This document shows, one piece after another, positions 3,366 to 55,482 of a stretch of DNA of 60,000 bases. This stretch comes from Malacoraja senta (Eukaryota). How positions within the stretch are numbered: the stretch's first letter is position 1; every line of letters begins with the position of its first letter. The position numbers were made by a program, and so were the translations under genes. The notes beneath the pieces were generated by a model, which made no database searches, was not told where the DNA came from, and saw only the letters and a program-made list of their open reading frames with translations. Where the stretch lies: positions 4,714,001 through 4,774,000 of the forward strand of contig CM075993.1 of assembly GCA_038087875.1 (NCBI GenBank), in the 5' to 3' direction.

Positions 3366-4777
3366 TAAGTTCTGCTGCATCAGCTGAACCCATAAACATT
3401 TAGTGTGGTAAATTATCAGTGATTCTATTAAGGAGGAACAATGTCACCTTTGCTTGCAGAGGCATTTATTTGTGCTTAGCTTGCATTTTAACTTCCCAGG
3501 AAATTATAAACATTGCTATCATTTCTACATGGTGAAATACAGATACCAAAATGTATAACAATTGCCTTGAAATTTCTTATGTAGAGATTTCAGGTTATAT
3601 ATAAAGTGAATACTTTATGAGAAACTGAAATAAAATTATATTCCACTGTGCAATAAAAATTAATTAAAAAAATCTTGTGTGCATATTGTACCTTATCATG
3701 CCACATCTTACAGCACTTCAGACAATGAATTACATTTGTAGTGTCTGCTAAGTGGGTATATGAATGTACTACTCTTTTTCATTCATGTATCGTATTAAAT
3801 ATACACATATGGTCAGCAACACACTGTGTGTAATTCATTTAATTTAGTCTAAGTTGTCTGATCAATTATATTTTACAAGCTAGGAAAGCAAAAGATGTCC
3901 ATTAAATTAGTTAGGTCATTTTTTTAATTCACATGGGAGATATATACATACAGTACATTAATAAGCTCACAAGAAAGGCTTCCCTCATCTAATGGGGTAA
4001 ACTTTTTATACAGGGCGTTTGGACTTTAAAATACATTTGGACAGGTACATGGATAGGAAAGGTCTGAGGCCAAATGCGGGTGGGTTGAACTAGCATAGAT
4101 TGGGCATCTTGGTTGGCATGGGGAATTCGGGCCAAAGGGCCAGTTTCCATGCTGTATGATTCTATGTGGTTGCCATCTTTAATCTAGACTACTTGAAACA
4201 GCTTTCAAACTTTGGTGAGACCATTTACCATTCTGTATTTATGTTGGTGGCTACGTAAGCCAACTCTGCCAAGAAAAGAGTCGACCACATGCAATTGGTC
4301 AGTGATGTCTGGTGATCCAAAATTCTGGTGCTGGCATATACTACACAGCTGTTGAAACCACTGATGATTATTGGTGACTCATCCGTACCCACAGCCAATG
4401 TCATCATTCCCTTCTGCCTTTGGCTGAAGTTTCTTATTTGTTGCAAACAATGTCAACCGCTTTTACATCCCTTTAACAAAGTATTTCACACTGCCTCGGT
4501 ACACGTGGCAATAATAAACATAACTAATCTGCGTGAAGAAGTCTCGACCCAAAACAACATCTTTCCATGTTCTCCAAGAATGTTTGGAGAACTGAATTAC
4601 TCCAACACTTTGTGCCCTTTTCTTTAACCTGCTAACAATGTATCTTACTAATCTTTTGGTTCATGGTACCTCTATATATGTATATCCTTTGGTAATATGG
4701 GCATTCCTTTAATAGGGCAATAATTAATGTGGGACAAGTGTAGATGGGGCATCTTGTAGAATAGCACATACAGTGAG

Positions 4778-5515
4778 TTGGTCACACCGCAGGTAAAAGG
4801 TAAGAGGACAAAAAGGGAACGGGTGGCCAATAGCCAGCATAGCAGTAGGCAGGTAGTGCAGGAGTCCCCTGCGGTCATCTCCCTCCTAAACAGGTATACC
4901 ATTTTGGATACTGTTGGGGGAAATGGCTCATCAGGGGAAGGCAGCAGCAGCCAAGTACATGGCACCATGGGTGGCTCTGCGGCACAGGAGGGGAGAAAAA
5001 AGAGTGGAAGGGCAATAGTAATAGGGGATTCCATTGTAAGGGGAATAGATAGGCGTTTCTGCGGCTGCAAACGAGACTCCAGGATGGTATGTTGCCTCCC
5101 TGGTGCAAGGGTCAGGGATGTCACTGAACGGCTGCAGAACATTCTGGAGGGGGAGGGTGAACAGCCAGTTGTCATGGTGCACATTGGCACCAACGATATA
5201 GGTAAAAAAAGGGATGAGGTCCTACAAGGTGAATTTAGGGAGCTAGATAAACTTAAAAGTAGGACCTCAAAGGTAATAATCTCTGGATTACTACCAGTGC
5301 CACAGGCTAGTCAGAGTAGAAATAGGAGGATATTGCAGATGAATACGTGGCTTGAAAAATGGTGCATGGGGGAGGGATTCAAATTTCTAGGGCATTGGAA
5401 CCAGTTCTGGGGGAGGTGGGACCAGTACAAAAAGGACGGTCTGCACCTGGGCTGGAATGGAACCAATGTCCTTGGGGGAGTGTTTGCTAGTGCTGTCGGG
5501 GAGGATTTAAACTAA
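4778..5515 (+). pseudogene. CR1 ORF1 C-terminal part, SGNH/GDSL esterase domain
   Basis: Motifs IGDSIVRG, CCLPGA, VHIGTND, DGLHL; ends EDLN*. Confidence 0.92.
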
Positions 5516-8479
5516 TGTGTCAGGGGGATGGGTGCAAGAGCAGAGAGGCAGAGGGGTGTAAAATGAGGGTAGAAGCAATAGGTAGCAAGGTGAAAAGTAA
5601 AAGTGGCAGGCAGACAAATCCAGGGCAAAAATCAAAAAGGGCCACTTTTCAACATAATTGTATAAGGGGTAAGAGTGTTGTAAAAACAAGCCTGAAGGCT
5701 TTGTATCTTAATGCAAGGAGCATTCGTAATGTGGATGAGTTGAATGTGCATAGTTATTAATGAATATGATATAGTTGGGATCACGGAGACATGGCTCCAG
5801 GGTGACCAAGGCTGGGAGCTGAACATCCAGGGATATTCAATATTCAGGAGGGATAGACAGAAAGGAAAAGGAGGCGGGGTAGCATTGCTATTTAGAGAGG
5901 AGATTAACGCAATAGAAAGGAAGGACATTAGCTTGGAGGATGTGGAATCGATATGGGTGGAGCTGCGAAACACTAAGGGGCAGAAAACGCTAGTGGGAGT
6001 TGTGTACAGGCCACCTAACAGTAGTAGTGGAGTTGGGGATGGCATCAAACAGGAAATTAGAAATGCGTGCAACAAAGGTAAAACAATTATAATGGGTGAC
6101 TTCAATCTACATATAGATTGGGTGAATCAAATTGGCAGGGGTGCTGAGGAAGAGGATTTCTTGGAATGTATGCGGGTTAGTTTTCTAAACCAACATGTAG
6201 AGGAACCAACGAGAGAGCAGGCTATTCTAGACTGGGTATTGAGTAATGAGGAAGGGTTAGTTAGCAGTCTTGTTGTGCGTGGCCCCTTGGGCAAAAGAGA
6301 CCATAATATGGTTGAGTTCTTCATTAGGATGGAGAGTGACATTGTTAATTCAGAAACAAGGGTCCTGAACTTAAAGAAAGGTGACTTTGAGGGTAGGAGA
6401 CGTGAATTGGCCAAGATAGACTGGCAAATGATTCTTAAAGGGTTGACGGTGGATATGCAATGGAAGGCATTTAAAAACTGCATGGATGAACTACAATTGT
6501 TCATCCCAGTTTGGCAAAAGAATAAATCCGGGAAGGTAGTGCATCCGTGGATAACAAGGGAAATCAGGGATAGTATCAAAACAAAAGATGAAGCGTACAA
6601 ATTAGCCAGAAAAAGCAGCCTACCAGAGGACTGGGAGAAATTCAGAGTCCAGCAGAGGAGGACAAAAGGCTTAATTAGGAAAAGGAAAATAGATTATGAA
6701 AGAAAACTGGCAGGGAACATAAAAACTGACTGCAAAAGTTTTTATAGATATGTGAAGAGGAAAAGATTAGTTAAAACAAATGTAGGTCCCTTGCAGTCAG
6801 AAACAGGCAAATTGATCATGGGGAACAAGGACATGGCAGACCAATTGAATAACTACTTTGGTTCTGTCTTCACTAAGGAAGACATAAATAATCTGCCGGA
6901 AATAGCAAGGGACCGGGGGTTAAATGAGATGGAGGAACTGAGTGAAATCCAGGTTAGCCGGGAAGTGGTGTTAGGTAAATTGAATGGATTAAAGGCCGAT
7001 AAATCCCCAGGGCCAGATAAGTTGCATCCCAGAGTACTTAAGGAAGTAGCTCCAGAAATAGTGGATGCATTAGTGATAATTTTTCAAAACTCTTTAGATT
7101 CTGGAGTAGTTCCTGAGGACTGGAGGGTAGCTAATGTAACCCCACTTTTTAAAAAGGGAGGGAGAGAGTAAACGGGGAATTACAGACCAGTTAGTCTAAC
7201 ATCGGTGGTGGGGAAAATTCTGGAGTCAGTTATTAAAGATGGGATAGCAGCACATTTGGAAAGTGGTGAATTCATTGGACAAAGTCAGCATGGATTTATG
7301 AAAGGTAAATCATGTCTGACGAATCTTATAGAATGTTTCGAGGATGTAACTAGCAGAGTGGATAAGGGAGAACCATTGGATGTGTTATATCTGGACTTTC
7401 AGAAGGCTTTCGACAAGGTCCCACATAAGAGATTAGTATGCAAACTTATTGGGGGTTCAGTATTGATGTGGATAGAGAACTGGCTGGCAGACAGGAAGCA
7501 AAGAGTAGGAGTAAACGGGTCATTTTCAGAATGGCAGGCAGTGACTAGTGGGGTACCGCAAGGCTCAGTGCTGGGACCCCAGCTATTTACAATATATATT
7601 AATGATCTGGATGAGGGAATTGAATGCAACATCTCCAAGTTTGCGGATGACACGAAGCTAGGGGGCAGTGTTAGCTGTGAGGAGGATGCTAGGAGGCTGC
7701 AAGGTGACTTGGATAGGTTGGGTGAGTGGGCAAATGCATGGCAGATGCAGTATAATGTGGATAAATGTGAGGTTATCCACTTTGGTGGCAAAAACAGGAA
7801 AGTAGACTATTATCTGAATGGTGGCCGATTAGGAAAAGGGGAGATGCAACGAGACCTGGGTGTCATGGTACACCAGTCATTGAAAGTAGGCATGCAGGTG
7901 CAGCAGGCAGTGAAGAAAGCAAATGGTATGTTAGCATTCATAGCAAAAGGATTTGAGTATAAGAGCAGGGAGGTTCTACTGCAGTTGTACAGGGTCTTGG
8001 TGAGACCACACCTGGAGTATTGCGTACAGTTTTGGTCTCCTAATCTGAGGAAAGACATTCTTGCCATAGAAGGAGTACAGAGAATGTTCACCAGACTGAT
8101 TCCTGGGATGGCAGGACTTTCATATGAAGAAAGACTGAATAGACTCGGCTTGTACACGCTAGAATTTAGAAGATTGAGGGGGGATCTTATAGAAACTTAC
8201 AAATTTCTTAAGGGGTTGGACAGGCTAGATGCAGGAAGATTATTCCCGATGTTGGGGAAGTCCAGAACTAGGGGTCACAGTTTAAGGATAAGAGGGAAGT
8301 CTTTTAGGACCGAGATGAGAAAATCATTTTTTACACAGAGAGTGGTGAATCTGTGGAATTCTCTGCCACAGAACGTAGTTGAGGCCAGTTCATTGGCTAT
8401 ATTTAAGAGGGAGTTAGATGTGGCCCTTGTGGCTAAAGGGATCAGGGGGTATGGAGAGAAGGCAGGGATGGGATACTGA
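5506..8479 (+). pseudogene. CR1 ORF2 (AP endonuclease + reverse transcriptase), disrupted
   Basis: YLNARSI, GITETW, MGDFN, DHNMV (APE); YLDFQKAFD, GVPQGSVLGP, KFADD (RT). There is a frameshift near 5750 and an in-frame TAA at 7169-7171 followed by TGNYRPVSLTS in the same frame. Confidence 0.93.
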
Positions 8480-9388
8480 GTTGGATGATTAGCCATGATC
8501 ATATCGAATGGCGGTGCAGGCTCGAAGGGCTGAATGGCCTACTCCTGCACCTATTTTCTATGTTTCTATCTTGGCTGGTTTTCATGCTGTATGACGCTAT
8601 GACTTTATTGACTTTCTTGGCAGTTGTATACAGTCTCATTTCACTGTCATACAGCAATAGGCAGATCATCAACAAAGTCCCGATTCCTCTGTCTGCTATT
8701 CCTCTATCCCCAGCGCTAATTAAGCAAAGTTAGTGGCTGTCTTTCCAATCAGCATACTGACAACTCAATCTCAAGTAATTCAATGCCTGCAATTCTCATT
8801 GCCCATGATCTAAATACCTTGCCAATTCTTGCATTGTTTTGTTTCTCCCGTCTCCTCATGAAAACGCTTCTGCCTCGCCCGTGGACATTTGCTGCCATGC
8901 TGCACCAAACATGGAATTTCCATCGGCACTCCATGGGAAGTGTGATCCAGATTCATTTACACCTTCACACGCAGTCAGATGCCCACAACCCCTACCTTAC
9001 GAGTTGCAAGCACAAGCAGAAACTGGTTTTTCATCTCTCTTGCTCACCAGCCTGACATCAATTGAAATATCGCTGCCATTACCCTTGTTAACATTAATTT
9101 AGTGACCAGAAGACAAATTTAGGAATTTATTTTCAGTTCTTAACATTTCATACACATTAGGATCACCAAATACTGACAAAATATAGTCAAAGAAGGTAAA
9201 AAGCATAAACAGTAAGCTTTTCCAGAATCTAGCATTTCTAAGTTCAAATGTCAGAGATATTAAATTCAAGGTGAGTCATGTAGGGAACAATCAAACTGAT
9301 TTCAGAAGGCTTATGGTTTAGAAATGAAGTACAAGTAACTAACGTGAGTAATAAATGTGTAAACAAATAGCTTACTAGTAAAACTTAC

Positions 9389-15400: not shown

Positions 15401-18400
15401 GGGTGAAGGGCCTGTTTCCATGCTGAATCTCAAAACTAAAATATTCATGGCTCAGGGTCCCCAAAGATGCAAGGGCAATTCAGAGTTAACACCAGGATAA
15501 TGAGCATATAACATTCTCAGATTTCTATTAAATTTCTATTATTGAATTACATCGTAAAGATCTCCCCATTATTCTGCACCAGGCCATAACACTGCTGACC
15601 ACTGCTTGGGATTCATGAACCAACAAAGCAATATCTCTAGAATGATCCTGTACCTTGGCTTCTTCCTCCTGTGCTTTTTTTACAATGGCTTGCAGTTGCA
15701 ATTCTCGTTTCAGTTCAGCGTGAAGTAGCTTTTCCTCCATCATTTTTCTCCTCTGTTCCAGCAGCTCCCCTTTCCATTTTCGCACTTCTTTCTCCTAAAG
15801 GCAGTGAGGATGGGTTAGGCAGTATTATACATGTAACACTTGCTTTTACTTGCATTTTAACACAGAAATGTCGAAGAATGATATGATGAATGTGGAGGTT
15901 GGTGGGGTAAAACGCAAGGATCAATTGAACTCTGATGAATACAGGGCAAATCAACAGGGATCGATGTTAGAAGACTGAGGGGGAGGTAACATTGAAACAT
16001 ACAACATTCTGACACAATCAAAAGGCTGGATGCAGGGAGGATATTTTCCCTAGCTCTAAAATCTAGAACCAGGGCTCTCGCTCTCAGGATATGGGGCAAC
16101 ATATTTATGATTTGAGACGAGGAGATTTTTTTACTCAGCAGGTGATAAACCTGTAAGAATTCTCCAGCACAGAAGTAATGGCAGCAAAGACATTGAATAT
16201 AATTAATGGAGAGATTGATTTCAAGACACAAAAAGGCATCGAAGGATATGGGGAGGGAACCAAAATATGGAATTTGGAGTTAGGATCAATTTGTATTGAG
16301 TGGCAGAATCATCTATTCCTACCCCTGTATTTCTAGCTCGTTAGCACTAAGCACTTTGGTTGGGGATATTACTAGAAGCCACAGAGGTTTCTTCTACTCT
16401 GATCTACCAGGCTCTGTCTGAACAGCAGAGGATACTTCCTACATTTCCAACATGGCAGCTATCTATGGAGCAGTAATTAGTGGCTTCTCAGACTTGAAAT
16501 CAGTGCAAATAGATGCAATTTTGCTTTGTTCCATTCACCCATCTGAAAACTAGTGCGGCACGATGGCGCAGCGGTAGAGTTGCTGCCTTACAGCGCCAGA
16601 GTCCCGGGTTCGATCCTGGCTACAGGTGCTGTCTGTACGGAGTTTGTATGTTCTCCCCGTGACCTGCGTGGGTTTTCTCCGAATACTTTGGTTTCCTCCA
16701 AAGACGTAGAGGTTTGTAGGTTAATTGGCTTGGTATATAAATGTAAAAATTGTCCCTAGTGTAGGATAGTGTCAATGTGCATGGATCACTGGTCGGTGCG
16801 GACTCAGTGGGCCGAAGGGACTGTTTCCACGCTGTATCGCTAAACTAAACTAAATTGAGACGGCAGTAACTCATACAATATTTAGAAGGAACATTCAGCT
16901 TTTCAGTGTGAGTTCCAATCACATCACAGAAAGAGGTTAAAACCTAACCCCCTGTGCACTTCCACTACTACATTTCTCACAGGCCGGAATTGAAACCGCT
17001 CTGCTTACCCGCTCCAACAATTTCTGTAGTTTCATAGTTTTCTCTTCTCTTAGTTTCTCACGAAGCTGTTGAGCTTTTAACTGCTTTTCCTCGTGTTTCC
17101 TTTTTGATTCTGCAATCGTCCTGTCAGTAGGAAATTTGAAAAGGCCATATTAGGGTTATTATTGTATCTAAAACCTTGTAATTTGGTTTACTCTGCAAAT
17201 GACAATCACAATACTGAATTACAGCTTAATGGTAATTCTGTACTGTGATAAGTAATTTAAGTCAGTAATTAATCTTAGTCACATTTTCCGCGATGGTGAG
17301 GAGAGCTTCTCGTGCATCTGGATGGCGTGTCCTGGTGGTCGTGCTGGTTCTTCCTCCACAATATCTCCCCACGATGTGCTCTGGCGCCAAGGTTCACGTG
17401 CTAAGAAAAGAATAATAATAAATCTTTGTGTAAAAAATCCAGCTGTTCCCAAGTTATTTCTCAGTAGGTTCTGGCAAAACCATAAACTGTCTTTTCCTTT
17501 CAGGCACTTCATCCAAAGCATCGCCTGTGGTTGTTTGGAAAGGTGCCATAAATAGGGAAGCAGGTGTTGGGGGAGGTGGAAGAGTGAACCAGTGGTTCAC
17601 AAAAGGGATGGTCCCTTTTAAATGCCTAAGAAGGAAGGGAATGGAAGATACACCAGATGGTGGCATCTTGTTGAGTGAGTCCATGAGATTTCTAGATGAT
17701 CCATTGAATATGGCGACTGGCGGGACGGAAGGCAATATATTCGCTGAGGGAAAAGGGGTAGGGCAAGGACATCCACGAGACCTTGTCAAGATCTGACGGA
17801 GGAGAAGCCACGGAAGCATATTGTGGAACCGCACAGATACAACAGATTTGAATAAACTGGAAGAACCAAAATGGAGTGCGAGTAAGAAGGTGGCAAGATA
17901 GATGTAGGAGAGCGAATTAACAACAGGGATGACATTAACCATGATCCAGTTTCCAGAGAGGGTCAAAAAACTATCAAGGTTGAAACTAAACTAAACTAAA
18001 TAATCAGATATGCCCAATAAAAATAAAAATAAACAAAAGAAATCTTTTTTTTTACCTTATCTGGTTTCAGAAAAATGACCTTCAGGAGAAAGATGCTATT
18101 CACATCAATCTATCCTTACCAGCAGAACCTGGTCTCAGGAACATAAGCCTGTCTGACTCTTTTAGGCACTTGTCAAGCATAGTTGTGGTAAATTCAAGAG
18201 GAAATTAAGTTGTGCAAATACCATCTGTTGCTCAATAAAATTACAAACAAAAGAATAAGAGGAACATGGAATCTTGGCTGCCAACAATATTGGCATTCAA
18301 AAGCGTTCACACCAGACCACAGGTTTAGGATCAAATGGCTGTCACTTCCCAACAGTTATTTGTGGGCCGTCCATGTTGAAACAAAATACAGTGAACTCTC

Positions 18401-21400: not shown

Positions 21401-24400
21401 TCTCTCCCTCCTAACACCCATTCTCCTGCCTTCACCCCATAACCTCTGACACCTGTACTAATCAAAAATCTATCTAACTCTGCCTTAAAAATATCCACTG
21501 ACTTGGCCTCCTCAACCTTCTGTGGCAAATAATTCCACAGATTCACCATCCTCTGACTGAAGACATGTCTCCTCATCTTCCTAAAAGAACATCATTTGAA
21601 TCTGAGGCTATGACTTCTAGTCCTAGACTCTTCCACTAGTGGAAACATAGTGGATATATGGAAACAAAGAGGTACAAACTGTGAAGCCAGAGGAAATGAA
21701 TGTAGGTGGAATGGAACAGGAGGAGGGGGGAGGTGAGAAAGGGTGGATTTCCAGGTGGGGCACATGTGAATCCAGGTGGGGAAGAAAGGGGCAAATCCTG
21801 ATGGGCACAGGGAAGTGAGGGGTTGAATCTAGGTAGGGCACAGGCAAGAGAGGGGCAAATATAATGGGTCACAGGCAAGACGTGAGGGGGCAACAAATCG
21901 TTAAAACCTGTGTTTAATTCGCTTTATTGCATAATTCCCCTCCCTTTGGTGCTGCTGAGAGGATTCCGCATGCTGGAGTGTGGTTCTACATACACCCGAG
22001 GCATAATTTACAGCACAACCAAACTTTGCATCTGAACCTCAACCTAAACTTTCCTAGCAAGGAAGCCTTCCGATGAAGAGGATATCATAGACCTGGTAAC
22101 AAATTCACACAACAGATCCAGATCAGTAAGGGGTCCTGTCTAATTAATTTCCTTCTCAGCACAGGTACATAGAAGTACCTCTTGAACCTTTCTCCGATTG
22201 AATTAGCACAGACAAAAGAATTACATCTAGGGATTATGTTCCAATGACTTAGTGCTACAACTCAGGATAGGTTTACTCATTATGTCACCGGAGTTACAAA
22301 ACTTTTTTATAATCAGCTCCCTAATCCTCCAGTACTCTAACATTATTCTTGTGCCTGAAGCAAAGTTAACTTTAGTCCATCATGAAATTAAATTTGTTGC
22401 AACAAAACAGGGGAGAAGGGGAGGGGGGGGGGGGAGAGAGAGAAGGAGTGGAGACACTTTTAAGAAGCCAGACAACTTTTAATGAAGTTTAGCGGGCATT
22501 TAACATTACCGGTCGGTTTTCCTTGGTTCTGAAAATTCCAATGAGCCAATTGAAATGCCCGGTCAGCAAAGGAGATCGCCTACGGCTACCTCGACTGCCT
22601 AGCGACCCCACTCCACTGCACTACGAGTTCAGAAGAACCATGCCGACCAATTTTTACCCGCGGAAAATTTTTCAGCATGCTGAAAACTTTTCCTCGACCT
22701 AACTGAGGCCACGAGTATGCGGGAACTTCCCTCGAGCTTGAAGGAGAGTTAAGCGGCTGTCCCACTGCGGCGACCTAATCTGTGAGTTTAGACGAGTTTG
22801 CCCTCGACTCAAACTCGGTTACATGGTCCTAGGAGGTCATATGAGGTCACTGGAACTCTCCTTCATGCTCGAGGGAAGTTCCCGAATACTCACGGCCTCA
22901 GTTAGGTCACAGAAAATTTTTCAGCATGTTGAAACATTTTCTGCGAGTAAAATTTGGTCGGCATGGTTCTTTTTAAACTCGTAGTGCAGTGGAGTGGTGT
23001 CTCCATTTAGTTACAGGCAGTCGAGGGCAGCCGTAGGCAATCTCCTTCGCTGACCAGGCATTTTGATTGGCATATTGGAGTTTTCAGGGCCAAGGAAAAC
23101 CGACCGGTAGGTAAAATGCCCGCTAAACTTTATTATACTTCTTAAAAGTGTCTCCACCCCTTCTCTCCCCCTCTCTCAAGGACTTACCAGACACTGTGCA
23201 GCCGTCTTTTACCTTCCTCTTCATCGCGGGTGTGAATTTCAGACAGCGCTCCCCCACTTTCCCTGGCCCCCCGCTGTGTGTGCGTGCGTGTGTGTGCATG
23301 CGTGCGTGTGTGCGCAAACTCTTCCAAACTCGCAAATTAGGTCGCCGCAGTGGGACAGGCCCTCTAGGAGCAATTTTTACATGGCTCACTTGAAAATCAA
23401 AATATTAACCATTTTTGTAATGGTTAGGCAATTTTTCTAATGGAACTTCAGTGAAACGGAAATGTGAAATACAAGTGATTGCCATCTTTTGTACAATTGA
23501 ATTCCAAAAACATTAGGAAGAATGATTGCAATAGGCGGTTAGGGATGGACAATAAACGCTAGCCATACTAGACTAGAAATATCCACACTCCACAAATTGA
23601 AAAATTCATCACTTATCATGGAGAAAGAGATTAAGAAAGGACAAAAAAAAATTGGTTGAAGTAGAATATAATAGCTTTCAAGATTTCTATAGCTGGTTAT
23701 TTTGAACAAATATGGTACATTAATCATTATATATCTGCAGACTGCAATACTAAGAGTTTTTGGAACAATTTAATTTAACTGGGACATATTCACCTAATCT
23801 ATTCAGGAAAATTGGATTTTCATAATTTTAAAATGTCAACTTGGTACAGTTTACAAGTGTTCATTCCGGTTGTGTTATTCTGAACTCTGAGCCCCTGCTG
23901 TCAACAGTAACCTTGTGCTATTGCCCTGACTGTCAGCATTGTTTACATAGACCTACATCCTTTATCCTTTTGGCGTTTTCACCAAACAGCCGAGAGACAA
24001 CAGACATGGCCCTTTCGTGAATTATGTTAAGAGTGCCTTACCAACATGGAGATGTGTGAGGAGGTAAAAGGATTGGCCCCTTATTAAAGAAAGATAACAT
24101 CAGGTCGTATTGAAAAACACATCAATGTAAATTTGTAAGATCTTTAGGATAACTTTTCATCAAATTAGAAATATACAGAATTTAAATATTTTCACACTAT
24201 AAATTGCAAAAGTTAACTATTTCCCCCAAATGTGTGGAAAGTTGGCCAGCATTAATTTTCTTCAAAAATTTGCTCTTTTTGTTTGTATCAGAACTGGTCA
24301 GTTCTGCTGTTAGGTAAGTATTATAATATAAAAGCTGATTTTCTCTCCCGATAGATACTGCCAGCACTCCCTCCTCAGTGTTAAAGAAGGAACTGCAGAT

Positions 24401-30400: not shown

Positions 30401-33400
30401 AAGGCAATAAAAGACTCATGTCGACTGGTTGGAGGCCTGAAAATTAGGTGTTCTATTAATAAAGGGGAGGCTTTCATTTTGCCAAGTACCAGAGGGCTTG
30501 TAAAGATTAATAATGTCTCCATCCTGTTCCATAATCTCCTCTGATTTCCTTTCAATTCTTTCCATCCCCCTCCCATACATTTGCAGACATGGTTTGAAAT
30601 GAAAACGTAGTTTACCACTGGCAATGTTGCTGCCCACATCTCTCATGCTTTTGCGAGGCTTGATCTCCATCTATTGAGACTAGAAACCTTCACAGGTTGG
30701 TTGTGGTAGAATGGAAAAACATTAAAGATCATGGATAGACACAAAAAGCTGGTGTAACTCAGCGGGTCAGACAGCATCTCTGGAGAAAAGAAATAGATGA
30801 CGTTTTGGGTCGAGACCCTTCTTCAGAAGAAGTCCTTTGCCTTCAGAAGAAGGTCTCGACCCGAATTGTCACCTATTCCCTTTCTCCAGTGATGCTGTAG
30901 GACCCGCTGAGTTACTTCAGCTTTTCATGTCTATCTCTGGTTCAAACCAGCATCTGCAGTTCCTTCTTACACATTAAAGATCATGGCTTGCAATTCAAGA
31001 AATAATGCACGATTAGCAACAAATATACATTCATTTCAAGGCACAAAGAAACAACAGAAAATGTGGTTCATCCATGGATTGCAAAGGAAATTAAATTCTA
31101 GGGAAAAGGATCATAAACCTCTGTTTCTTCAAGAAAAGGTAAAAGGATGTTGAAATTGTAAGACATTGTGATGGATATAACATGAATTTAATTTATAGCT
31201 AACTATTTTGCAGCAAACTCATAAATTCATGACCCATAAGATTTTGTGGGCATCACAGAATGCATTTAAGAATGACAAATAGAAAGGACAGTGAGATGGT
31301 GTTACACGGTTCATAAAATATGGGATTTGTACACACACAAAAGGAACAGGGCCAAGCGGAACCTAAAATAGAATTAGAATCGGTTTGGCTGTAGCTAAAA
31401 AGCAGCAGAGGACATAAAACACTAACAGGAGTTATATCAGCCTCCAAATAACAGTTCAGAAGTAGAGCATGGTAGGCACAAAGAAACAACAGAAAATGCG
31501 GCTCTTCCATGGATTGCAAGATAAATTAAATTCTAAGGAAAAGGATTATGAAGTTGCCAGCAGTTGAATATTGGGACCATTTTCTAATTCAACAAGATGA
31601 CCAGAAAAATAGAAAGAGTGAAGTGACAGTAAGCCAGCAAGATAAATAAAAACAGACTAAAAACTTTGGAAGGCATGGAAAAAGAAAATGACTAACAATG
31701 GCAAACTACCAGAGGGGCCCCTTACAGATGGAGGTGGGAGAATTTACAATGGGAAATAAATGATGGCATGGGAAATCAATACACTTTCTGAAGTATTGGA
31801 AAAGTAAGAATTCTTTGCCTATGAGGAAGTTCAAGAAATCAGTGTTATTAATTTCTCCAGTATATAATGAGCAATGATTTACATCCTAGAGTTTTGAAAG
31901 AGGTGTTTATGGAGTTGGTGGATACTCTAGTTATCATCTTTCAAAACATTATAGGTTCTGCAATGGTTCTTCCAGATTAGAGGGTAGCGAATGATCTTTA
32001 AGAAATGCAGGTGAGAAGACAACCTATTAGCTTGACGATGGGAGTGAGAAGAGTGCTGGAATCGATAATAAGGAAAATTATAACAAGACAATCAGTAAAT
32101 AATAAAAGCTCTCAGTCCACACCAATGTATTAACCCCATTTCCACATCCTTCAACCTTTTCACTAACCTCCTGTGCTAGACCTTATTAATAATAAACAAT
32201 ATGCTAATCAACTTCTCTACATCGGTGAGACCAGGAGCAGGCTTGCCGATCGTTTCACTGAACACCTCCGCTCAGTCCGTCTTAACCTACTTGATCTCCC
32301 GATGGCTGAGCACTTCAACTCCCCCTCCCATTCCCAATCTGACTTTTCAGTCCTGGGCCTTCTCCATTGTCAGAGTGAGGCCCAGCGCAAATTGGAGGAA
32401 CAGCACCTCATATTTTGCTTGGGTAGCTTACACCCCAGCAGTATGAACATTGATTTCTCTAACTTCAGATAGCCCATGCTTTCTCTCTCCATCCCCTTCC
32501 CAGTTCTCCCCCTAGTCTTACTGTCTCCAACTACATTCTATCTTTGTCCCGCCCCCTCCACGAACATCAGTCTGAAGAAGGGTCTCAACCGAAACGTCGC
32601 CCATTCCTTCTCTCCAGAGATACTCCAGCATTTTGTGTCTATAATCAAACACTTGACATCCAGTATAGCACAGAAATGGGGTCTTCAGCCCACAGACATT
32701 TTTGCCCATCTACACTAATCCTATTTGCCAGAAATTGGACAGTATCATTCTATGCCTTACTATTTAAGACTGTCTAAATTTCACATAGTAATTATATCCA
32801 CCACGCCCTCCAGCAGCATGTTGCAGACATCGACCAATCTATCTATGTGTAAAATAAAAATTCCCAAAAGATGTCCTTTAAATCATCTCCAAACTATGCT
32901 CATTTGATTTACTTTAGTCTGAAGAAAGGCCCCAACCCCGAAACATCACCTATCCATGTCTTCTAGAGATGCTGCCTGACCCACCGAGTTACTCCAGCAC
33001 TGTGTTCCATGCAAGTTTCCAGCATCTGCAATTTCTTATGTCCCCATCGGGGAAAAAAAATGAGGTTAGTTAAAATAAAACAGAAATGCTGAATATTTTA
33101 CAAATGATGGAAAATTGAGAAGTGATTATGCTCAAAGGGATTTGAGTGTTGTTGTGCACAAATAACTGAGAGCTAGCATGCAGTGGGCAACTGGTATGAA
33201 AAAAAATGCTTCGTTGCAAGAGGATTTGCGTACAAGATTAAAGATCATCATTGAGCACATTTTTATAATTACAAGAATTTTGTTTTGGAACTGTGATCAA
33301 CATGTGGTATTCAATCCCATTGATATTAGTTTGTCTGTTATGCTCTCCATATTACTTTACAGTCAATGTAAATATGTATGTATACAATATTAGAATATTA

Positions 33401-36400
33401 ATACATACAATTGTCTTAATATACTGCTTCAGTTTGCTTAAATTTGGGATAAAGAAGAAAAAGGCTGATCAAAAAAATGTATGTTCATCATAGTGAACTG
33501 GAAAAGGTCTAATAAAATAGCCATATTTGAAATATTTGACGAGCAGCCTGAAGATTATAGTTGAGTTCCAAAGTTTCTATTCTTTGCCCTGAATAATCTT
33601 TTGCCATTCTATATGCTGTTTTCAATTACAGCTGCAGGCATAAAATTAGATAATACAGGTATATAGGCGACACCGTCTTCCTCCTGACCATTTTCAAAGA
33701 GTCTTCTATGTATGGTGATGCCTTTACCTCACAAATCAATATGTGAACATCGTTTGGGATGTCAGAGGTAAAACTGCTGCATCAGAGGTTTAATTAAGAT
33801 GTTAATGCAAGTGAACGCTAAAGCTATCATAATAGTCATTTTTTTTAAGGAAAGGAAGACATTCCGATTGTCTTTGATTATCATTCATCCCCAATGAAAA
33901 ACATAAAACCAGGTTAATTGGCATTTCATACAAAACACATCCGAACATGAATTGGCTGAAGAAGGGGAAAAAGATGAAAAAAATGTGTGGACTTCATCCC
34001 AAAGTTCTGCACCAAAGAGAAATATTTAAATATAATATTATAAACACATGCATTAAAACAAATCTGCTGCTGCTGTGTCACTCAGCATTATTTCCATGCA
34101 AGCAGTCACTTCATTCTTTTCATACTCACATTTGAAAGCTCACTGGAAAGATCCATGTCAGGCCCCAGTCTGGGACTCTCCAATGGAGATGGTTCTTGCA
34201 CAGAAACAATTGGTGTCACTTCCACTTTCATATCCTCTGACTGGCATACATCTTTTGCTCGTTCAGTAGTGTCTGTCTCTTGCTGCCAGGACTTGTCTTG
34301 TACATTATCAGGCTGCACTGGATCCGTCGACATGTTTGCTGTGTACTAATGTAACATAATGCTCATTACAAGATGTTTCAGTAGGTCTGCAACTATTCAA
34401 AACATTACTATTGATCAAAATACAGAGATCTTTTGGCCCAACTCTCCAGAGTTAAAGCTGTACAAAGACAATTTGGATGTGCTTCCAATTAGATACTAAT
34501 TAGATTAGAAGCACCTAGTAAATGGGGAGATTTTGTTGCAGTTTGTAAAAGAGAAGGCAGCTGTACAGGAAAGTACTTACATGTAAAATAATACTTCTTT
34601 GTATTATAGAATCAATTAAAACAGCCTAGCTGTGGAATACACCCCATTCTCATACAAGACTGGATTTGTAGGTCTGGAAGTGGGATATAACTAATGCCAA
34701 GTACAAAATCTGGCCATGGATCTTTTTTTCCACAGAAGACGTAAACTAGTATTTGGCAAGCAATGGGAAATATATCTAGTATCTTGTACTTGCATGGAGG
34801 CACGGATGTAAAGCAGTTTAAAGCACAATACAAAGAATAAAATAAAAGGACACCGGGGCCAAAGAAGATTGGAAGGGGTGACTATGATCTGTGTTTTAGC
34901 GTACATATCAAAGTTGGAAATTGAAAGGATTGGGTTCCAGGAGGTAATTCCCCACCTGGCTTGCCAATAATAGGTTAGGGTTACATTTTCAATCCTGCCT
35001 GCCTACACCCGGAAAAATCAACAGGAAAGTCTATACCCAGTGTTAGATCTGCCACCTACAGCACACAAGCTGTGGCCTTTGGAGTTCCATTTTAAATACC
35101 CTTGAGGCGGCACCTGGTGGCAACCCAAGGGCACAATGAACCATCGGCTCCCACGGCGTCTTGGTGTGGGAGGCGCTAGTCACGGGGTCGGTACCTGAGT
35201 TGGTATTTAAGGCCGGGCAACGCCCGTGACCGAGAGGGAGTAGGGAGCTGTATTGGAGAGAATAAACACGTCTAGTGCACACAACTCGCGTCCGACTAGT
35301 TTTTGGCTGGACACCTGCGAGTCCCCGCTACACCCTTTTAAATACCATTACTGCATTTAAACTTGAATATGTGGCACGTTCCATTGTATGTATCTAAATA
35401 GTCAAAGATTGAAACTGAAAATGTACCAATGTTGATGGTCATGAGAAAGTAAGTAGTTAAATAGGAACCTTACCTTTGTCAATGTATCTGCTCATGTGGC
35501 ATTCATTGCCTCATAATGTCATGGATTATAATCAAAGAATTGCAAGCAAGATTGGCAACAATAAACCCGGGGCATCAAGATAATCGAGTGTAAACGAGAC
35601 AAAGTAAAAGGCAATATTGCGTGCTTCAACTTGAACTCTTATGGCCTGCTTACAACTGATAATGTATTGATCATGTTTAAGAAGGAACTGCAGATGCTGG
35701 AAAATCGAAGGTAGACAAAAGTGCTGGAGAAACTCAGCGGGTGAGGCAGCATCTATGGAGCGAAGGAAATAGGGAACGTTTCGGGTCGAGACCGTTCTTC
35801 AGACTGATGTGAGGGTGGTGGGGGGGGGGGTGGGGACGGGAAGAAGAAAGGAAGAGGCAGAGACAGTGGGCTGAGGGAGAGCTGGGAAGGGGAGGAGAAA
35901 GCAGGGACTACCTGAAATTAGAGAAGTCAATGTTTATTGTGTATCTATTTGTTGTGTTGTTGCGTTACTGTGCCTGTAAAAGCTGCAGTAAGTAAAATTC
36001 ATTATTCTATTCTTGGTGCATAAGACAATTAAACACAGTGATACAATATGGAAACAGGCCCTTTGGCACAATTTGTCAATGCCGACCAAGATGCCCCATT
36101 GACACTAGTCCCACCTGCCTGCGTTTGGCCCTTATCCATTTACTCTCCATGTACTTGTCTAAATACTTAAATGTTGTTATAGTACCAGGCTCAACTACCT
36201 CCTTTGGCAGCTCGTTCCATATACCCATCACCCTCTGTGTGAAAATGTTGTCCCTCAGGTTCTTGGTTCTTGGTTTCTTGGTCCTCCAAAATATTCCAAA
36301 TGGAATTTAAACTGGAGGTGGTGGAGGGAGGACTTTAGCCAGAAAGGGTTTTTGGGAAGAAAGAGCTACCTTAAATTTAGTTGCATCTGGTTGGGTAACT

Positions 36401-39400
36401 ATGGTAGGGTGAAGATTATTCCATGCTTTAATTGTGCGGGGGAAGAATGAATTGCTGTACACATCTGTCTTGGCAGCTGGAATCACAAATTGGATTGAAT
36501 GCCCTCATCTGCTCCTAATTGGTTTGGGTTTGGTGTGGGTTTTGTAATCTATGTCGAGCTGACCCTTTAACATTTTGTAAAAACAGGTCAAACGGTGAGC
36601 TTCACGTCTGTCTTGGAGAGGGTTCCACCTCAGTGAACTCAGAAGTTTGGCAACACTCACTTCTCTCTAATAGGTGTTAGTAACAAATCGAGCTGCCTGT
36701 CTTTGGACCTTTTGAAAAAGGTCCTTTTGAACCTTTCCCCTCACGTTAAACCTATATCCTCTGGTTCTTGATTTCCCCTACTCTGAGTAAAAGACTCTGT
36801 GCATTTACCCTATCTATCCCCCACATGACTTTATACAAGATCACCCCTCAGCCCCCTGCGCTCCAAGGAACAAAGTCCTAGCCTGCCCAAACTCTCCTTA
36901 TAGCTCAGGCCTTCAAGTCCTGGCAACATCCACATAAAAAACTAAAATAGTCTTGCCTAATATTGCATAACACTGAATACGACCAGCTCTCTCACTGCTT
37001 GACAGCGACAGTCATAAGAGTTAATTGTATTAAATTGCTTGGTGCTTCTTTTGAAACACGATTGTTCACTGTTATCTCATGATGAAAATTATTAATCATT
37101 GAATAAAGCATGAATAATTGCCATCTGGTGGTTTGTCAAATATATGATCACTGAGGTGCGGTATATCAGTCCTGAGGAATGCAATACTGTCTACTGAGCT
37201 CCCAGTGTCAGTCTCACAAGCTCTTGGGTAATTTTTCTGAACGCATGAGAAGCTCTTCGGCCAAACATAATCAACATTTTAGCCCCAAATGTACAATATA
37301 AATAAAATCATAGTCACCCAACCATTTAGTAGCTGAAGCTTGAATGCCAACACATGCACTAACCTTAGATACAAACTGTCCCCTGTAGCAAGTCAATAAG
37401 AAAAGGGGAAACTTTAAGAGCCAAGAATTTAAACATTCATAACACCCAACATAAAATGTCAATTTAATACAAATGCATAGTCTCTTGGGCTCTCGAAGTG
37501 TTCCCCATTTCTGAGTGAATTACTGATTTATGATCTACACCAGACATAGAATTTCCCATCAGTGCAAGCCATTTCTTCATAAAACCTGCAATAATCTCAT
37601 CACGGTCGACAATTCTTTTCTGTAACTGCCACTACTCATTAAGGACATGAAGCAAACTGACAGATGATGATAGGACACTGAGAAAACCCGCTGGCCCCGA
37701 TGCAATTTGAGAAAGATACAATCTATTCCGACATCAAGAAAATAGATGCATTGCCCACTACATCTACATATCAGGCCAAGCAGTGCTTGTAAAATCCCTT
37801 CCCTGAATAACTGCACTGAACCCAATAGTTTTTTTTTTAATGAATAGCAATCTCTTTTGATGAACATGAGAAATATTACACTCCAAAAGGAGAAATTAAA
37901 TTGGGCAGTTGATGAAGTTTTGGAATCTTTAAAAATCAGCTCAATTGAAAGCTGACAGCTTAACAATGTAATTACATCTCAAGTAAAGGTAGCTTGTTTT
38001 TACAAGTAACGAGTATTACAACACTGATGGAACAAGCATATACCTCACAAATGTATGAAAAATGAATGCTTCTGCATTCAGCATTCAGCATTCAGGCAGA
38101 AATCTGCCAATCTCTGTATCTACTGGAATAATCGATCAGTCTGAAGAAGGGTCTTGACCCGAAACGTCACCCATTCCTTCTCTCCACAGATGCTGCCTGT
38201 CCCACTGAGTTACTCCAGCATTTTGCGTCTACCTTCGGAATAATCTATCTTCTGGTGCATTCCACTGTGCCCAAGTCATGTCCCCATCCTGCGTCTCTGT
38301 CGTCTACTTTTAGTCTCCATGCCGGATGTCTAACCTCAGGCTCCTTCTTGATATTCCACCACATTCAAAACTGTATATTTTGTGCTGTTCCCTTGTTTAA
38401 TTACATTACAGAATGAAAGATAGTCCTTCTACTTAGGGCGCACAGTGGCGCAGCGGTAGAGTTGCTGTCTTACAGTGCTTGCAGCTCCAGAGACCCGGGT
38501 TCGATCCCGACTACGGGTGCTGTCTGTACGGAATTTGTTCGTTCTCCCTGTGACTGAGTGGGTTTTCTCCGAGATCTTCGGTTTCCTCCACCACTCCAAA
38601 GACGTACACGTTGGTAGGTTAATTGGCTTGGTATAAGTGTAAATTGTCCCTAGTGTGTGTAGGGTAATGTTAATGAGCGGGGATCGTTGGTCGGTGCAGA
38701 CGAGGTGGGCCGAATGGCCTGTTTTCACACTGTATCTCTAAACTAAATTACTTGACACTTCAACAGAAGGCAAGAGCTCGGAGCATATTTATCTAGATTC
38801 TTCAATCTTTGCAATTGCTTACTCATTCAATGGTCATCCAGATTTTCCAACATTTATTTTGCTCCAAGACATCTTTATTATTATAATTGGCAACATTTAT
38901 AATTCACTTTCATTCTTTATTTGCAACACAGATCTGATTGCCCTACCAGAAGGTATTATGTCATCACAATTGGAAGCAATGTGCAGATGACACATTACAA
39001 ATCAGTCCAGACTTTGCCTGTACAATGTGTGCACAATGTCTTTGGGGATCAACTTGTATAAACAAGATGAAAATATTTTGTTTATTAACTTGTGGGACAA
39101 TGAAAATTCCTCTCACCTTAAAATCTGTCTTTCAGTGCAAAACCTAAAATCTGAATACAGGCAATTTAGCTCTGAAGTGGAAGGAGTCAGTGAGAATCGA
39201 GTACTTTCAAGAAATAAATATTCACATTTTAATGATGTGCCTTTAAAGAAAATTGTATATTCACTTTACAACCATAATTATTTAATTGGATGATGTAATG
39301 ATAATTACAGGAGAGCAGGTGCAATAAACTCTGCTATTTTAGTTTTACCGAATTAGAATGTTAATCACAGAATCATTAATCTGCAGATCAAAAAGAAGCT

Positions 39401-53208: not shown

Positions 53209-55033
53209 ATGAAGCTGTATTATAGTTTTAGTAGCATGTTTTCCTGAATTGTTTGAAAATAATTCAATAAAGTCATTTGAGCAGCATGATAACCGCTGCT
53301 CACAAACCACCAAACAATCAAATGGCTTGGTGAAAATCTAAACACAGCATTATAATCTTATTATGCTCTGAAGTTGGATTAAAACGATTCCAAAATAATT
53401 ACAAACTTATTTTTGCTATTCACAATCTTATCCATCTGTGATTTTTATCCATAATGCTCAATGTTTCTGAAGAGAAACATCAGTCACATTTTTCAACTCC
53501 TTTCCTTTTTCCATATAGGCTCCTCTTTAATATCTGGAACCTGTGCATGACTAACTTGCTCCTTGACTTCTGTCAATACGCTTCTGAAATCAATAAAGGA
53601 TACTTCAATAGTAACATCGAAGTATCAGCGGCCACCAGTGTTTCCTGTCCTAAAGACGATGCAGGAACATCAAAAGAAACATTACAAGATTATCACTTCT
53701 GCCAGTTAAGCTCCTATGGCTTACCATGTACCACATCGGTGTGAAGAAGGGTCTCAACCCGAAATGTCATCTATCCATGTTTTCCAGATATGCTGCTTGA
53801 CCTGCTGAGTTACTCCAACACTTTGTGTCCCTTTTATGTATTAACCAGCATCTGCAGTTCTTTGTTTCTACTTCACCACATAAGTACGGCAGAATTACGT
53901 GTGCTGTTGTGCATGCAATTGTGAGTTTTCTTTATGCAACTTGTGCGCACATAGGCAGTGCTTAGGAAATGCCAACTCCAAAATGTTTAATAGCCTGCCG
54001 TCCTCACAGACTGACAAATATGCTCAATGTTTCCAATCATTTTTATTTTAGCGATATTAAAAAATGTCTGTGACAATATAACTTTGATAGCCGTTTTGAA
54101 ATGCACATAAAAACACTACTCACTACTAAAACAACAGGAAATTCATCAATGAACTCTCTTAATAAAAACAAGTGATAAATCTCAGCAATCTTACTTCACA
54201 ATAAAATTGTAAAAGCATGCTCCCAAGTTATTGCAATTATCAATATAAAATGCACACTTCCAATTAATATCTATACCTTGGAGAAGACGTACATTAAAAT
54301 TAATGGGTATACTATTCTTTATATTGGAGAATTGAACCTAACCCATTATAGTCAATGCAGAAGAGAAATTACACTATATAACATTATGGTTCAGATTGGA
54401 TAATACATTGCAACGCAAAAGCCTATCGCATACATCTTCAGCAGAGCATTTAAAACAGAAATTGCTGAAACACTTAACAGATCAGGTAGCATTTGTGGAA
54501 AGAGAAACATGGTTACTGTTTCACATTTAATACCCTTTGTCAGAAGTGGGAAAGAGTACAATAAATTATTTTTGAGGAGTAAAAAGGTAGAGCAATGATG
54601 TGGCAGAACAAAGGGGGTAGGACAAGGCCAAAATGTGTTAAAATGGTAGTTTGAAGCACATTATGCTTCTTTGTCTCCATTGTGTTGGCAGTAGCAGGGC
54701 TGTGAGGAACAAAGTCAAAATCACAGAAGGATGACTTGCAGAAATACCCAGTTTTGATCCAAATAGAGTGGCTTACCTAAAGAGTAAGAATTCAATATTG
54801 GGTTTTGACGGTTGCAATGTGCCCAGACGGAAGATATGCAACTCAAGCTTAATTAAAGCCATGTTGTGGCCACAGAATGGGAGTGGAATGGGAAATTTAA
54901 AAAAATCAGAGAACACCACAGCCCAATGATTCCGTGCCGACCATCAACCACCCATCTTTACATCTATAAATAATCCCCCAATGTTGTTTAATTCTCCTCA
55001 CATTCTTATCACCCAGATTCCAGCTATACAGTT

Positions 55034-55482
55034 AACCTATGATGAGCGTTTGTCAGCACTGGGCCTGTACTCGCTGGAGTTTAGAAGAACGAGGGGGGAC
55101 CTCATTGAAAGATACAGAATAGTGAAAGGCTTGGATAGAGTGGATGTGGAGAGGATGTTTCCACGAGTGGGAGAGTCTAGGACCAGAGGTCATAGCCTCA
55201 GAATTAAAGGACTTTCTTTTAGGAAGATGAGGAGAAATTTCTTTCATCAGAGGGTGGTGAATCTGTGGAATTCTTTGCCACTGAAAGCTGCAGAAGCCAA
55301 GTCAGTGGATATTTTTAAGGTAGAGATAGATAGATTCTTGGTTAGTACATGCGGCAGAGGTTATGGGGAGAAGGCATGAAAATGGGATTAGGAGGGAGAG
55401 ATAGATCAGCCATGATTGAATGGCAGAGTAGACTTGATGGGCCGAATGGCCTAATTCTACTCCTATCACATGACTTTATGAC
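55034..55482 (+). mobile_element. CR1 3' fragment
   Basis: YDERLSALGLYSLEFRRTRGDLIE..QRVVNLWNSLP; 3' UTR. Confidence 0.9.

What the first reader, a model, noticed from the sequence alone, without database searches (positions are those of the whole stretch)
5501..5575. In-phase T_TTA_AAC slippery site at the CR1 ORF1/ORF2 junction: candidate -1 programmed ribosomal frameshift in a vertebrate LINE
Seen: ORF1 ends GAG GAT TTA AAC TAA, so 5506-5512 is T_TTA_AAC, an X_XXY_YYZ heptamer in the correct phase directly before the stop. The -1 frame (TTT AAA CTA ATG TGT CAG...) stays open for about 80 codons and leads into the endonuclease start LKALYLNARSIRN. G-runs at 5523-27, 5530-32, 5553-56 and 5567-69 begin 10 nt downstream. 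Established: UUUAAAC is the coronavirus slippery heptamer, and G-quadruplexes can stimulate -1 frameshifting. Inference: this CR1 family may make an esterase-EN-RT fusion in a gag-pol-like way, rather than reinitiating as L1 does. My unverified recollection is that amniote CR1 ORF1s also end in ...LN* on TTTAAAC, which would imply deep conservation.
Basis: partly seen in the sequence, partly recalled or inferred. Interest (0 to 1): 0.8.

Follow-up and report, generated by a model that had tools for sequence, protein, structure and literature searches.

The report
Conserved frameshift site in CR1 LINEs
A very common vertebrate jumping gene (CR1 LINE) keeps a virus-style slippery sequence at the end of its first gene, with its enzyme gene continuing one base back and often lacking a start codon, so the enzyme is likely made when ribosomes slip back one base, which would explain how these elements express it.

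Summary
Confirmed. T_TTA_AAC (5506-5512) is in ORF1 phase directly before the stop of a dead, 5'-truncated CR1 copy (4759-8572), and ORF2 lies in the -1 frame. The site is under nucleotide-level constraint. Three further CR1 families of this genome, 14 of 18 bird-like junctions and two very distant elements (about 28% ORF1 identity) keep the same seven bases. A third distant element carries another canonical heptamer, T_TTT_TTA. Across 15 lineage representatives the terminal Leu is TTA in 15/15 and the preceding wobble base T in 15/15, while 20 other conserved ORF1 residues use mixed codons. Several lineages have no Met before the endonuclease (family 3: 18/18), and the TAATG stop-start overlap of the window's family is absent from 60/60 copies of families 2 and 3. 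Best reading: -1 programmed ribosomal frameshifting makes an ORF1-ORF2 fusion (about 0.8; no product shown). Distant elements have a hairpin 9-10 nt downstream. Vertebrate ones have only a positionally fixed G-run at +9 to +12; a four-tract G-quadruplex is not conserved, so the stimulator is open. No CR1 frameshift report was found in 10 literature searches; key older papers were not held.

The parts
4759..8572 (+). 5'-truncated, inactive copy of a young CR1 LINE family (family 1)
   Evidence: 96.5% identity to longer sister copies over exactly this span; 1393 first-look candidates for the junction in G000, 40 scored
4760..5515 (+). ORF1, 3' part (251 codons; open frames of about 316 codons in longer copies), SGNH/GDSL esterase domain, ends EDLN*
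   Evidence: (PF13472, E 1.9e-9)
5506..5512 (+). Slippery heptamer T_TTA_AAC in ORF1 phase; predicted -1 shift site
5513..5517 (+). ORF1 stop TAA; in this family it overlaps an ATG in the -1 frame (TAATG), which is not conserved in other families
   Evidence: 30/30 in family 1, 0/30 in family 2, 0/30 in family 3
5523..5532 (+). G-run motif (G5-AT-G3) starting 11 nt after the heptamer; candidate stimulator of unknown kind
   Evidence: a run of 4 or more G starts at +9..+12 in 15 of 18 vertebrate representatives; no stable local fold
5506..5691 (+). -1 frame linker (62 codons) between heptamer and endonuclease; sequence and length vary between families, frame is kept
5692..8479 (+). ORF2: APE endonuclease then reverse transcriptase; broken in this copy (frame break near 5750, stop 7169-7171)
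   Evidence: (PF03372, PF14529, PF00078)
8480..8572 (+). Short 3' UTR ending in a TTTCTATG-type short repeat
   Evidence: likeness to the CR1 3' microsatellite is recalled, not from a call

Best explanation
CR1 ORF2 is most likely translated by -1 programmed ribosomal frameshifting: ORF1 ends on the in-phase heptamer U_UUA_AAC, ORF2 continues one base back, and a minority of ribosomes would slip there to make an ORF1-linker-endonuclease-reverse transcriptase fusion. Shown: heptamer, phase, -1 arrangement, codon-level conservation, absence of Met before the endonuclease in several lineages, a hairpin 9-10 nt downstream in three distant elements, and a fixed G-run at the same distance in vertebrate elements. 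Inferred: tandem slippage of tRNA-Leu and tRNA-Asn onto UUU AAA, so the fusion would read ..L-N/K-L.. into the linker; most ribosomes would stop at the adjacent UAA/UAG and give free ORF1p, which would set a low ORF2p:ORF1p ratio as in gag-pol. Weakest step: the vertebrate stimulator. The G-run may pause the ribosome through a bound protein, a G-structure or an unfound partner, helped by the adjacent stop. Whether the fusion stays whole or is cut is untested.
For: (1) Heptamer kept in family 1 28/30, family 2 30/30, family 3 29/30, family 4 4/4, bird-like junctions 14/18, distant L142 and L149. (2) Codon test on 15 lineage representatives: Leu TTA 15/15, Asn AAC 13/13, preceding wobble T 15/15 over eight different residues; 20 control columns have top-codon fractions of 0.38-0.77; four-fold sites between major lineages are mostly 20-50% identical. 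At 30 other x-L-N sites in seven elements only 1 has TTTAAAC; the chance product for seven lineages is 4e-12 if independent. (3) L153 has U_UUU_UUA in phase instead. (4) No Met before the endonuclease Asn in 18/18 family-3 copies that reach it; first Met after residue 233 (L062), 197 (L142), 470 (L153), while PF03372 spans 57-260, 77-285 and 83-286. (5) The -1 frame opens only 2-37 codons upstream of the heptamer. (6) The linker is 37-81 codons and unalignable, yet in frame, also in recombinant copies. (7) Hairpins at +9/+10 in L142, L149, L153 (z -2.1, -1.2, -3.6). [quoted passage not shown]
Against: No fusion protein, ribosome profile or reporter. No stable downstream structure in any of 16 vertebrate representatives (z between -1.8 and +2.0) and no consistent long-range partner for the G-run. 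Family 1 has TAATG and most bird-like elements have a Met within 4-24 codons of the stop, so AUG reinitiation is possible there. 4 of 18 bird-like junctions deviate, and only 5 of those 18 reach the endonuclease unbroken; the rest are decayed or cut short. Only one of three hairpins has a clearly significant z-score. Lineages are related, and the protein-tail test has no DNA behind it. L132, an esterase element of other architecture, has no heptamer at that place.
Confidence: 0.8

Rival explanations
1. AUG-independent termination-reinitiation as proposed for mammalian L1: ribosomes stop at the ORF1 stop and restart nearby in the -1 frame on any codon, giving a free ORF2p.
For: Explains open, Met-less linkers. 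L1 tolerates replacing the ORF2 ATG by other sense codons (PMC1965478, passage), and calicivirus reinitiation tolerates start-codon changes (PMC5972666, passage). The stop directly follows the heptamer in nearly all vertebrate elements.
Against: Does not predict fixed XXX-YYY-Z bases, a heptamer-to-heptamer swap (L153), or slippery dipeptides that sit 2-13 residues before the stop (L149, P0131).
Confidence: 0.1
2. UAAUG stop-start translational coupling as in SART1: ORF2 starts at the ATG that overlaps the ORF1 stop (5515-5517).
For: TAATG in 30/30 family-1 copies and in L111; SART1 precedent (PMC5972666, passage).
Against: 0/30 in family 2, 0/30 in family 3, and absent from family 4, L142, L153 and most bird-like elements. 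It could at most be a second route in family 1.
Confidence: 0.04
3. The seven bases are kept for another reason (terminal Leu-Asn needed by ORF1p plus codon bias, dual coding, or a DNA/RNA signal for transcription or packaging), and ORF2 is expressed otherwise.
For: Leu-Asn is invariant in 22 aligned ORF1 proteins; F-K-L starts the -1 frame in most elements.
Against: Codon bias gives 1-12% per lineage and 1 of 30 control sites; the -1 frame is shut 2-5 codons upstream in most elements, so little dual coding is possible; distant tails swap among different slippery words; a transcription signal would not need reading phase.
Confidence: 0.04
4. ORF2 is reached by splicing or by a separate internal transcript.
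For: Bird-like elements and family 3 have AG right after the heptamer (TAG).
Against: Families 1, 2 and 4 have TAA; the upstream sequence is purine-rich with no pyrimidine tract; Met-less families would still lack a start; the frame is open from the heptamer itself.
Confidence: 0.02

Closest known systems
Retroviral gag-pol and coronavirus ORF1a/1b -1 PRF sites (U_UUA_AAC in IBV)
   Same: In-phase X_XXY_YYZ heptamer at the end of the first ORF, polymerase ORF in -1; same heptamer set (PMC5009743, passages); the distant elements also have a 3' hairpin.
   Different: Host element is a target-primed non-LTR retrotransposon without Gag or protease; vertebrate elements show no pseudoknot or hairpin, only a G-run; no product shown.
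Canonical vertebrate CR1 (esterase-type ORF1, type IV; CR1 subgroup 7 of PMC4120745)
   Same: SGNH esterase ORF1, APE + RT ORF2; ORF1 83% identical to a sawshark protein over 170 aa.
   Different: In the passages searched, PMC4120745 (frameshift 0, overlap 0) and the 2026 survey PMC13343379 (overlap 0, translat- 0, start codon 0) say nothing on how ORF2 is reached.
Dictyostelium TRE5-A (APE-type non-LTR element)
   Same: Two overlapping ORFs (PMC5633606, passage); a -1 frameshift proposal is named in earlier scan notes and matches my recall.
   Different: Other clade and kingdom; that review has 0 hits for 'frameshift', so the proposal was not seen in print here.
Bombyx SART1 UAAUG coupling
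   Same: Family 1 has the same stop-start pentamer.
   Different: The pentamer is not conserved across CR1 families; the heptamer is.
Mammalian L1 ORF2 reinitiation
   Same: Bicistronic LINE RNA, ORF2 not strictly dependent on AUG.
   Different: L1 has a 63-nt spacer between the ORFs (PMC5972666); here the frames overlap on a fixed slippery site.
PEG10/Edr and other LTR-derived vertebrate genes with -1 PRF
   Same: -1 frameshift used in vertebrate cells (PMC5009743).
   Different: LTR origin, pseudoknot stimulator.

Membership tests
-1 programmed ribosomal frameshift signal | X_XXY_YYZ heptamer in the phase of the upstream ORF, before its stop | tested here: met
-1 programmed ribosomal frameshift signal | Downstream ORF in -1, open from the heptamer on | tested here: met
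   25/30, 24/30 and 18/30 copies of families 1-3 reach the endonuclease motif (the family-3 count misses recombinant copies, 3 of which reach it); L142 835 and L153 827 codons open
-1 programmed ribosomal frameshift signal | Conservation of the bases beyond protein need | tested here: met
-1 programmed ribosomal frameshift signal | 3' stimulator (hairpin or pseudoknot) a few bases downstream | tested here: inconclusive
   hairpin at +9/+10 in 3 of 3 distant elements; none in 16 vertebrate representatives, which have a fixed G-run; no Rfam match in 6 loci
-1 programmed ribosomal frameshift signal | Trans-frame product that depends on the heptamer | not testable with these tools
   needs a reporter, mass spectrometry or ribosome profiling
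G-quadruplex-stimulated frameshift | Four conserved G-tracts able to fold just 3' of the site | tested here: not met
   ViennaRNA gave only weak two-tier folds in 2 of 19 representatives; only the first run is positionally kept
UAAUG stop-start coupling (SART1 type) | Conserved AUG overlapping the ORF1 stop | tested here: not met
   30/30 family 1, 0/60 families 2 and 3
CR1 LINE, esterase-ORF1 type | ORF1 with SGNH esterase | tested here: met
   PF13472
CR1 LINE, esterase-ORF1 type | ORF2 with APE endonuclease and RT | tested here: met
   PF03372, PF00078; RT part 56% identical to a bird-like element
CR1 LINE, esterase-ORF1 type | 5' truncation, short 3' UTR ending in a short tandem repeat, no poly(A) | tested here: met
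   the family rule is recalled
CR1 LINE, esterase-ORF1 type | RT phylogeny inside the CR1 clade with named references | not tested
   no curated reference set was at hand; clade of L142, L149, L153 rests on 37-55% ORF2 identity to vertebrate elements

The most novel reading that the evidence does not exclude
The esterase-type CR1 lineage as a whole, the dominant retrotransposon of most vertebrates and with relatives beyond them, makes its endonuclease-RT as an ORF1-ORF2 fusion by -1 frameshifting. The vertebrate branch has replaced the hairpin by an unstructured G-run stimulator that acts through a protein or a G-structure. CR1 ORF2 annotations that begin at the first Met would then be truncated and miss endonuclease motif I.
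Probability: 0.6. Interest if true: 0.88.

Novelty: new variant of a known kind. Interest (0 to 1): 0.78.

Why it matters
How LINEs translate ORF2 is a long-open question. The studied cases are reinitiation (L1, SART1), and a large frameshift review names no CR1 case in the part held (PMC5009743). A conserved gag-pol-like signal in CR1 would be a third solution and would put -1 PRF in the most abundant retroelement of birds, reptiles and sharks. It predicts an esterase-EN-RT fusion that could tie ORF2p to the ORF1p particle, corrects ORF2 start annotations, and points to a new kind of stimulator. It is testable with a 150-nt reporter insert.

Tried and rejected
Viral-contig scans found no relatives; the prokaryote genome scan gave one decayed fragment without a junction. 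Own-genome searches with P0040 (E 1e-75) and P0128 (E 1e-12) returned nothing at those strict cut-offs. A search for longer, fused proteins gave 9 hits; the four I read look like gene-prediction splices and say nothing on a natural fusion. PDB sequence searches with two -1 frame products gave 0 hits, so the endonuclease was placed by Pfam. Long-range partner for the G-run: a C-rich ORF1 stretch about 630-650 nt upstream pairs well in family 1 (rank 0.002) and moderately in L091 (0.022), but not in families 3 and 4 or L092 (0.08-0.23); in family 2 the motif was not located; rejected. G-quadruplex: not conserved. Rfam: 0 matches. The count of zero stops in the linker of 11 representatives is circular, because they were picked for reaching the endonuclease; not used. 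Sequencing runs: no RNA holder listed; contigs of 4 runs showed no joint across the junction, which is no evidence on splicing or expression. Dropped rows: 9 of 24 candidates in the codon test had under 90 open ORF1 codons; L096 and L123 (mis-anchored) and L097, L098 (end before the junction) were left out of the bird-like count; 82 of the 135 proteins screened were not in the two tail groups (35 are vertebrate-type 26-residue LN tails, the others had no complete tail), and the 49 include a few vertebrate-type tails. Papers not held: PMC7528939, PMC1190309, PMC1356112.

Full report
Observation. The window holds a CR1-type LINE at 4759-8572, 96.5% identical to longer sister copies and missing the first part of ORF1. 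ORF1 carries an SGNH esterase (PF13472); ORF2 carries an APE endonuclease and RT. ORF1 ends GAG GAT TTA AAC TAA, so T_TTA_AAC at 5506-5512 is in phase, and the -1 frame runs 84 codons from it into the endonuclease start. This copy is dead: small deletions near 5730 and 5750 and a stop at 7169. TTTAAAC occurs 19 times on the + strand of the window, so the single site proves nothing. The stop also overlaps an ATG in the -1 frame (TAATG), which raised a rival at once. ORF1 homologues point to a cartilaginous fish as host (inference).

Own family. The junction search gave 1393 candidates, 40 scored, 30 fetched, all chosen for likeness to the query. 28 of 30 have the heptamer, 30 of 30 TAATG, and 25 of 30 read in the -1 frame into the endonuclease motif at the same distance. 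This fixes the frame relation. It says nothing on selection, since copies decay neutrally.

Other families in the genome. Searches with diverged ORF1 proteins gave families 2, 3 and 4, whose esterase regions are 52-68% identical to each other and to family 1. Heptamer: 30/30, 29/30 and 4/4; TAATG: none. In family 3, 18 of 18 copies that reach the endonuclease have no Met before its first conserved Asn. In L062 the first Met follows residue 233 of the -1 frame product, while PF03372 spans 57-260. In family 4 (L164) the first Met lies inside motif I. Five recombinant copies join the family-3 junction to the family-1 linker in frame.

Other animals. ORF1 proteins end in Leu-Asn-stop in sharks, rays, Xenopus, lizards, a snake, turtles and a turaco; their DNA was not obtained. 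Of 18 bird-like junctions (four tested are 55-60% identical to the turaco protein, one 38%), 14 have TTTAAAC and 4 differ by one or two bases; 5 reach the endonuclease unbroken in -1, the others are decayed or cut short. Four loci were about 28% identical to the query. L142 ends Y-L-N-stop on T_TTA_AAC with 835 open codons in -1 and no Met for 197. L149 has T_TTA_AAC two codons before its stop. L153 ends F-L-I-stop and carries T_TTT_TTA in phase, with 827 open codons in -1 and no Met through the whole endonuclease. L132 has another layout and no heptamer there. The hosts of these four are unknown; they are equally far (27-32%) from all named vertebrate proteins (three tested).

Is it protein or nucleotide constraint? 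In a codon alignment of 15 representatives (9 of 24 candidates dropped for short open ORF1), 20 conserved residues use mixed codons (top codon 38-77%). The terminal Leu is TTA in 15/15, Asn is AAC in 13/13, and the base before is T in 15/15 under Asp, Ser, Thr, Gly, Cys, Ala, Tyr and Phe; four-fold sites between major lineages are near saturation. With each element's own codon use the chance per lineage is 0.009-0.115, the product over seven lineages 4e-12 if independent, and 1 of 30 other x-L-N sites has these bases. In proteins, the residue before terminal Leu-Asn is one that cannot end in T in 1 of 115 cases, against 54 of 287 elsewhere. The -1 frame is shut 2-37 codons upstream, so ORF2's frame opens at the junction. 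A profile search (10,925 hits at E 0.001, best 150 listed) brought more distant ORF1s with tails such as QGN*, SKN, TKN, FL and GF. 39 of 49 such tails hold a slippery-compatible dipeptide against 12.5 expected, and 0 of 4 tails of the DGLHP type do. These rows are related, include a few vertebrate-type tails and lack DNA, so they are support in kind only. The implied words match the most shift-prone heptamers listed in PMC5009743.

Stimulator. L142, L149 and L153 fold a hairpin starting 9-10 nt after the heptamer (-14.2, -17.0, -19.5 kcal/mol; z -2.1, -1.2, -3.6). By eye, two outer pairs differ on both sides between L142 and L153. Sixteen vertebrate representatives show no stable local fold, but a run of four or more G starts at +9 to +12 in 15 of 18, against 0-9% per comparable window further down; the three misses look like decayed bird-like copies. 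A four-tract quadruplex is not conserved, no long-range partner recurs, and Rfam has no match. PMC5009743 says natural use of G-quadruplexes for frameshifting was not known in 2016. The vertebrate stimulator is therefore unexplained; a protein-binding G-run or the adjacent stop are inferences.

Mechanism and rivals. The best reading is -1 programmed frameshifting (0.8): shown are site, phase, frame, constraint and missing starts; inferred are slippage, the fusion and its level. AUG-independent reinitiation (0.1) explains the missing Met but not the fixed or swapped heptamer. UAAUG coupling (0.04) fits family 1 only. Protein or codon constraint (0.04) fails the control columns. Splicing (0.02) lacks a conserved acceptor. 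Laid contigs could not test RNA.

Literature. Ten searches listed no paper on frameshifting in CR1, which required CR1 with slippery or frameshifting terms, gave 0 papers. Seen as passages only: PMC5009743 (first 300,000 characters held; CR1 0 hits; non-LTR cases HeT-A, TART, L1), PMC11835228, PMC4255032, PMC4120745, PMC5972666, PMC13343379, PMC1947958, PMC3905857, PMC5633606, PMC3956500, PMC1965478. Not seen: Haas 1997, Kajikawa 1997, Kapitonov and Jurka 2003, Kojima 2005, Alisch 2006 and Repbase notes; an earlier remark on the overlap may stand there. No supplements were opened; those of PMC13343379 may hold family sequences that bear on the claim. Earlier scan notes from other genomes reached the same idea; they are unchecked AI notes and are not counted as evidence.

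Verdict. Real feature, strongly conserved, most likely a -1 frameshift site. A known recoding mechanism in a class of element where I found no report of it: new variant of a known kind, interest 0.78.

Noticed in passing
L069, L074, L077, L083, L084; join matches window about 5538: A recombinant CR1 subfamily: family-3 ORF1, junction and linker fused in frame to the family-1 linker and ORF2 (linker about 110 codons). Loose ends at 5538 in two laid runs suggest it also exists in other organisms.
   Followed up: partly
L032 linker: A 21-codon tandem duplication in the family-2 linker that keeps the frame.
   Followed up: no
window 15960-16255, 21424-21648 (-), 31873-31992, 33079-33204, 36106-36938 (-), 55017-55376, 58376-58707: Further short CR1-like ORF2 fragments, none with ORF1.
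   Followed up: no
L091, L092, L094, L103; P0094, P0098, P0099: Bird-like ORF1s lack the His of the D-G-x-H esterase motif but keep the terminal Leu-Asn and the heptamer.
   Followed up: no
L142, L149, L153: Esterase-ORF1 CR1-like elements far from all vertebrate ones. PMC4120745 found this ORF1 type only in vertebrate CR1 and L2 groups; PMC3905857 reports esterase ORF1s in many animal phyla.
   Followed up: partly
L132:1101-2700: Esterase ORF1 with a long proline- and glycine-rich repeat tail after the domain, followed by an endonuclease ORF; junction not examined.
   Followed up: no
P0006, P0071, L155: Vertebrate-type CR1 ORF1 sequences filed under Pseudomonas aeruginosa, Protopolystoma xenopodis and a Providencia contig; likely host contamination.
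   Followed up: no
window about 4860-4890: C-rich ORF1 stretch that pairs well with the family-1 G-run (-25.6 kcal/mol, top 0.2%), not seen in other families.
   Followed up: yes
L092, L094, L103, L104, L109, L141, about +27 to +50 after the heptamer: Small hairpin shared by bird-like elements, too far from the site for a classic stimulator and not significant by shuffling.
   Followed up: partly
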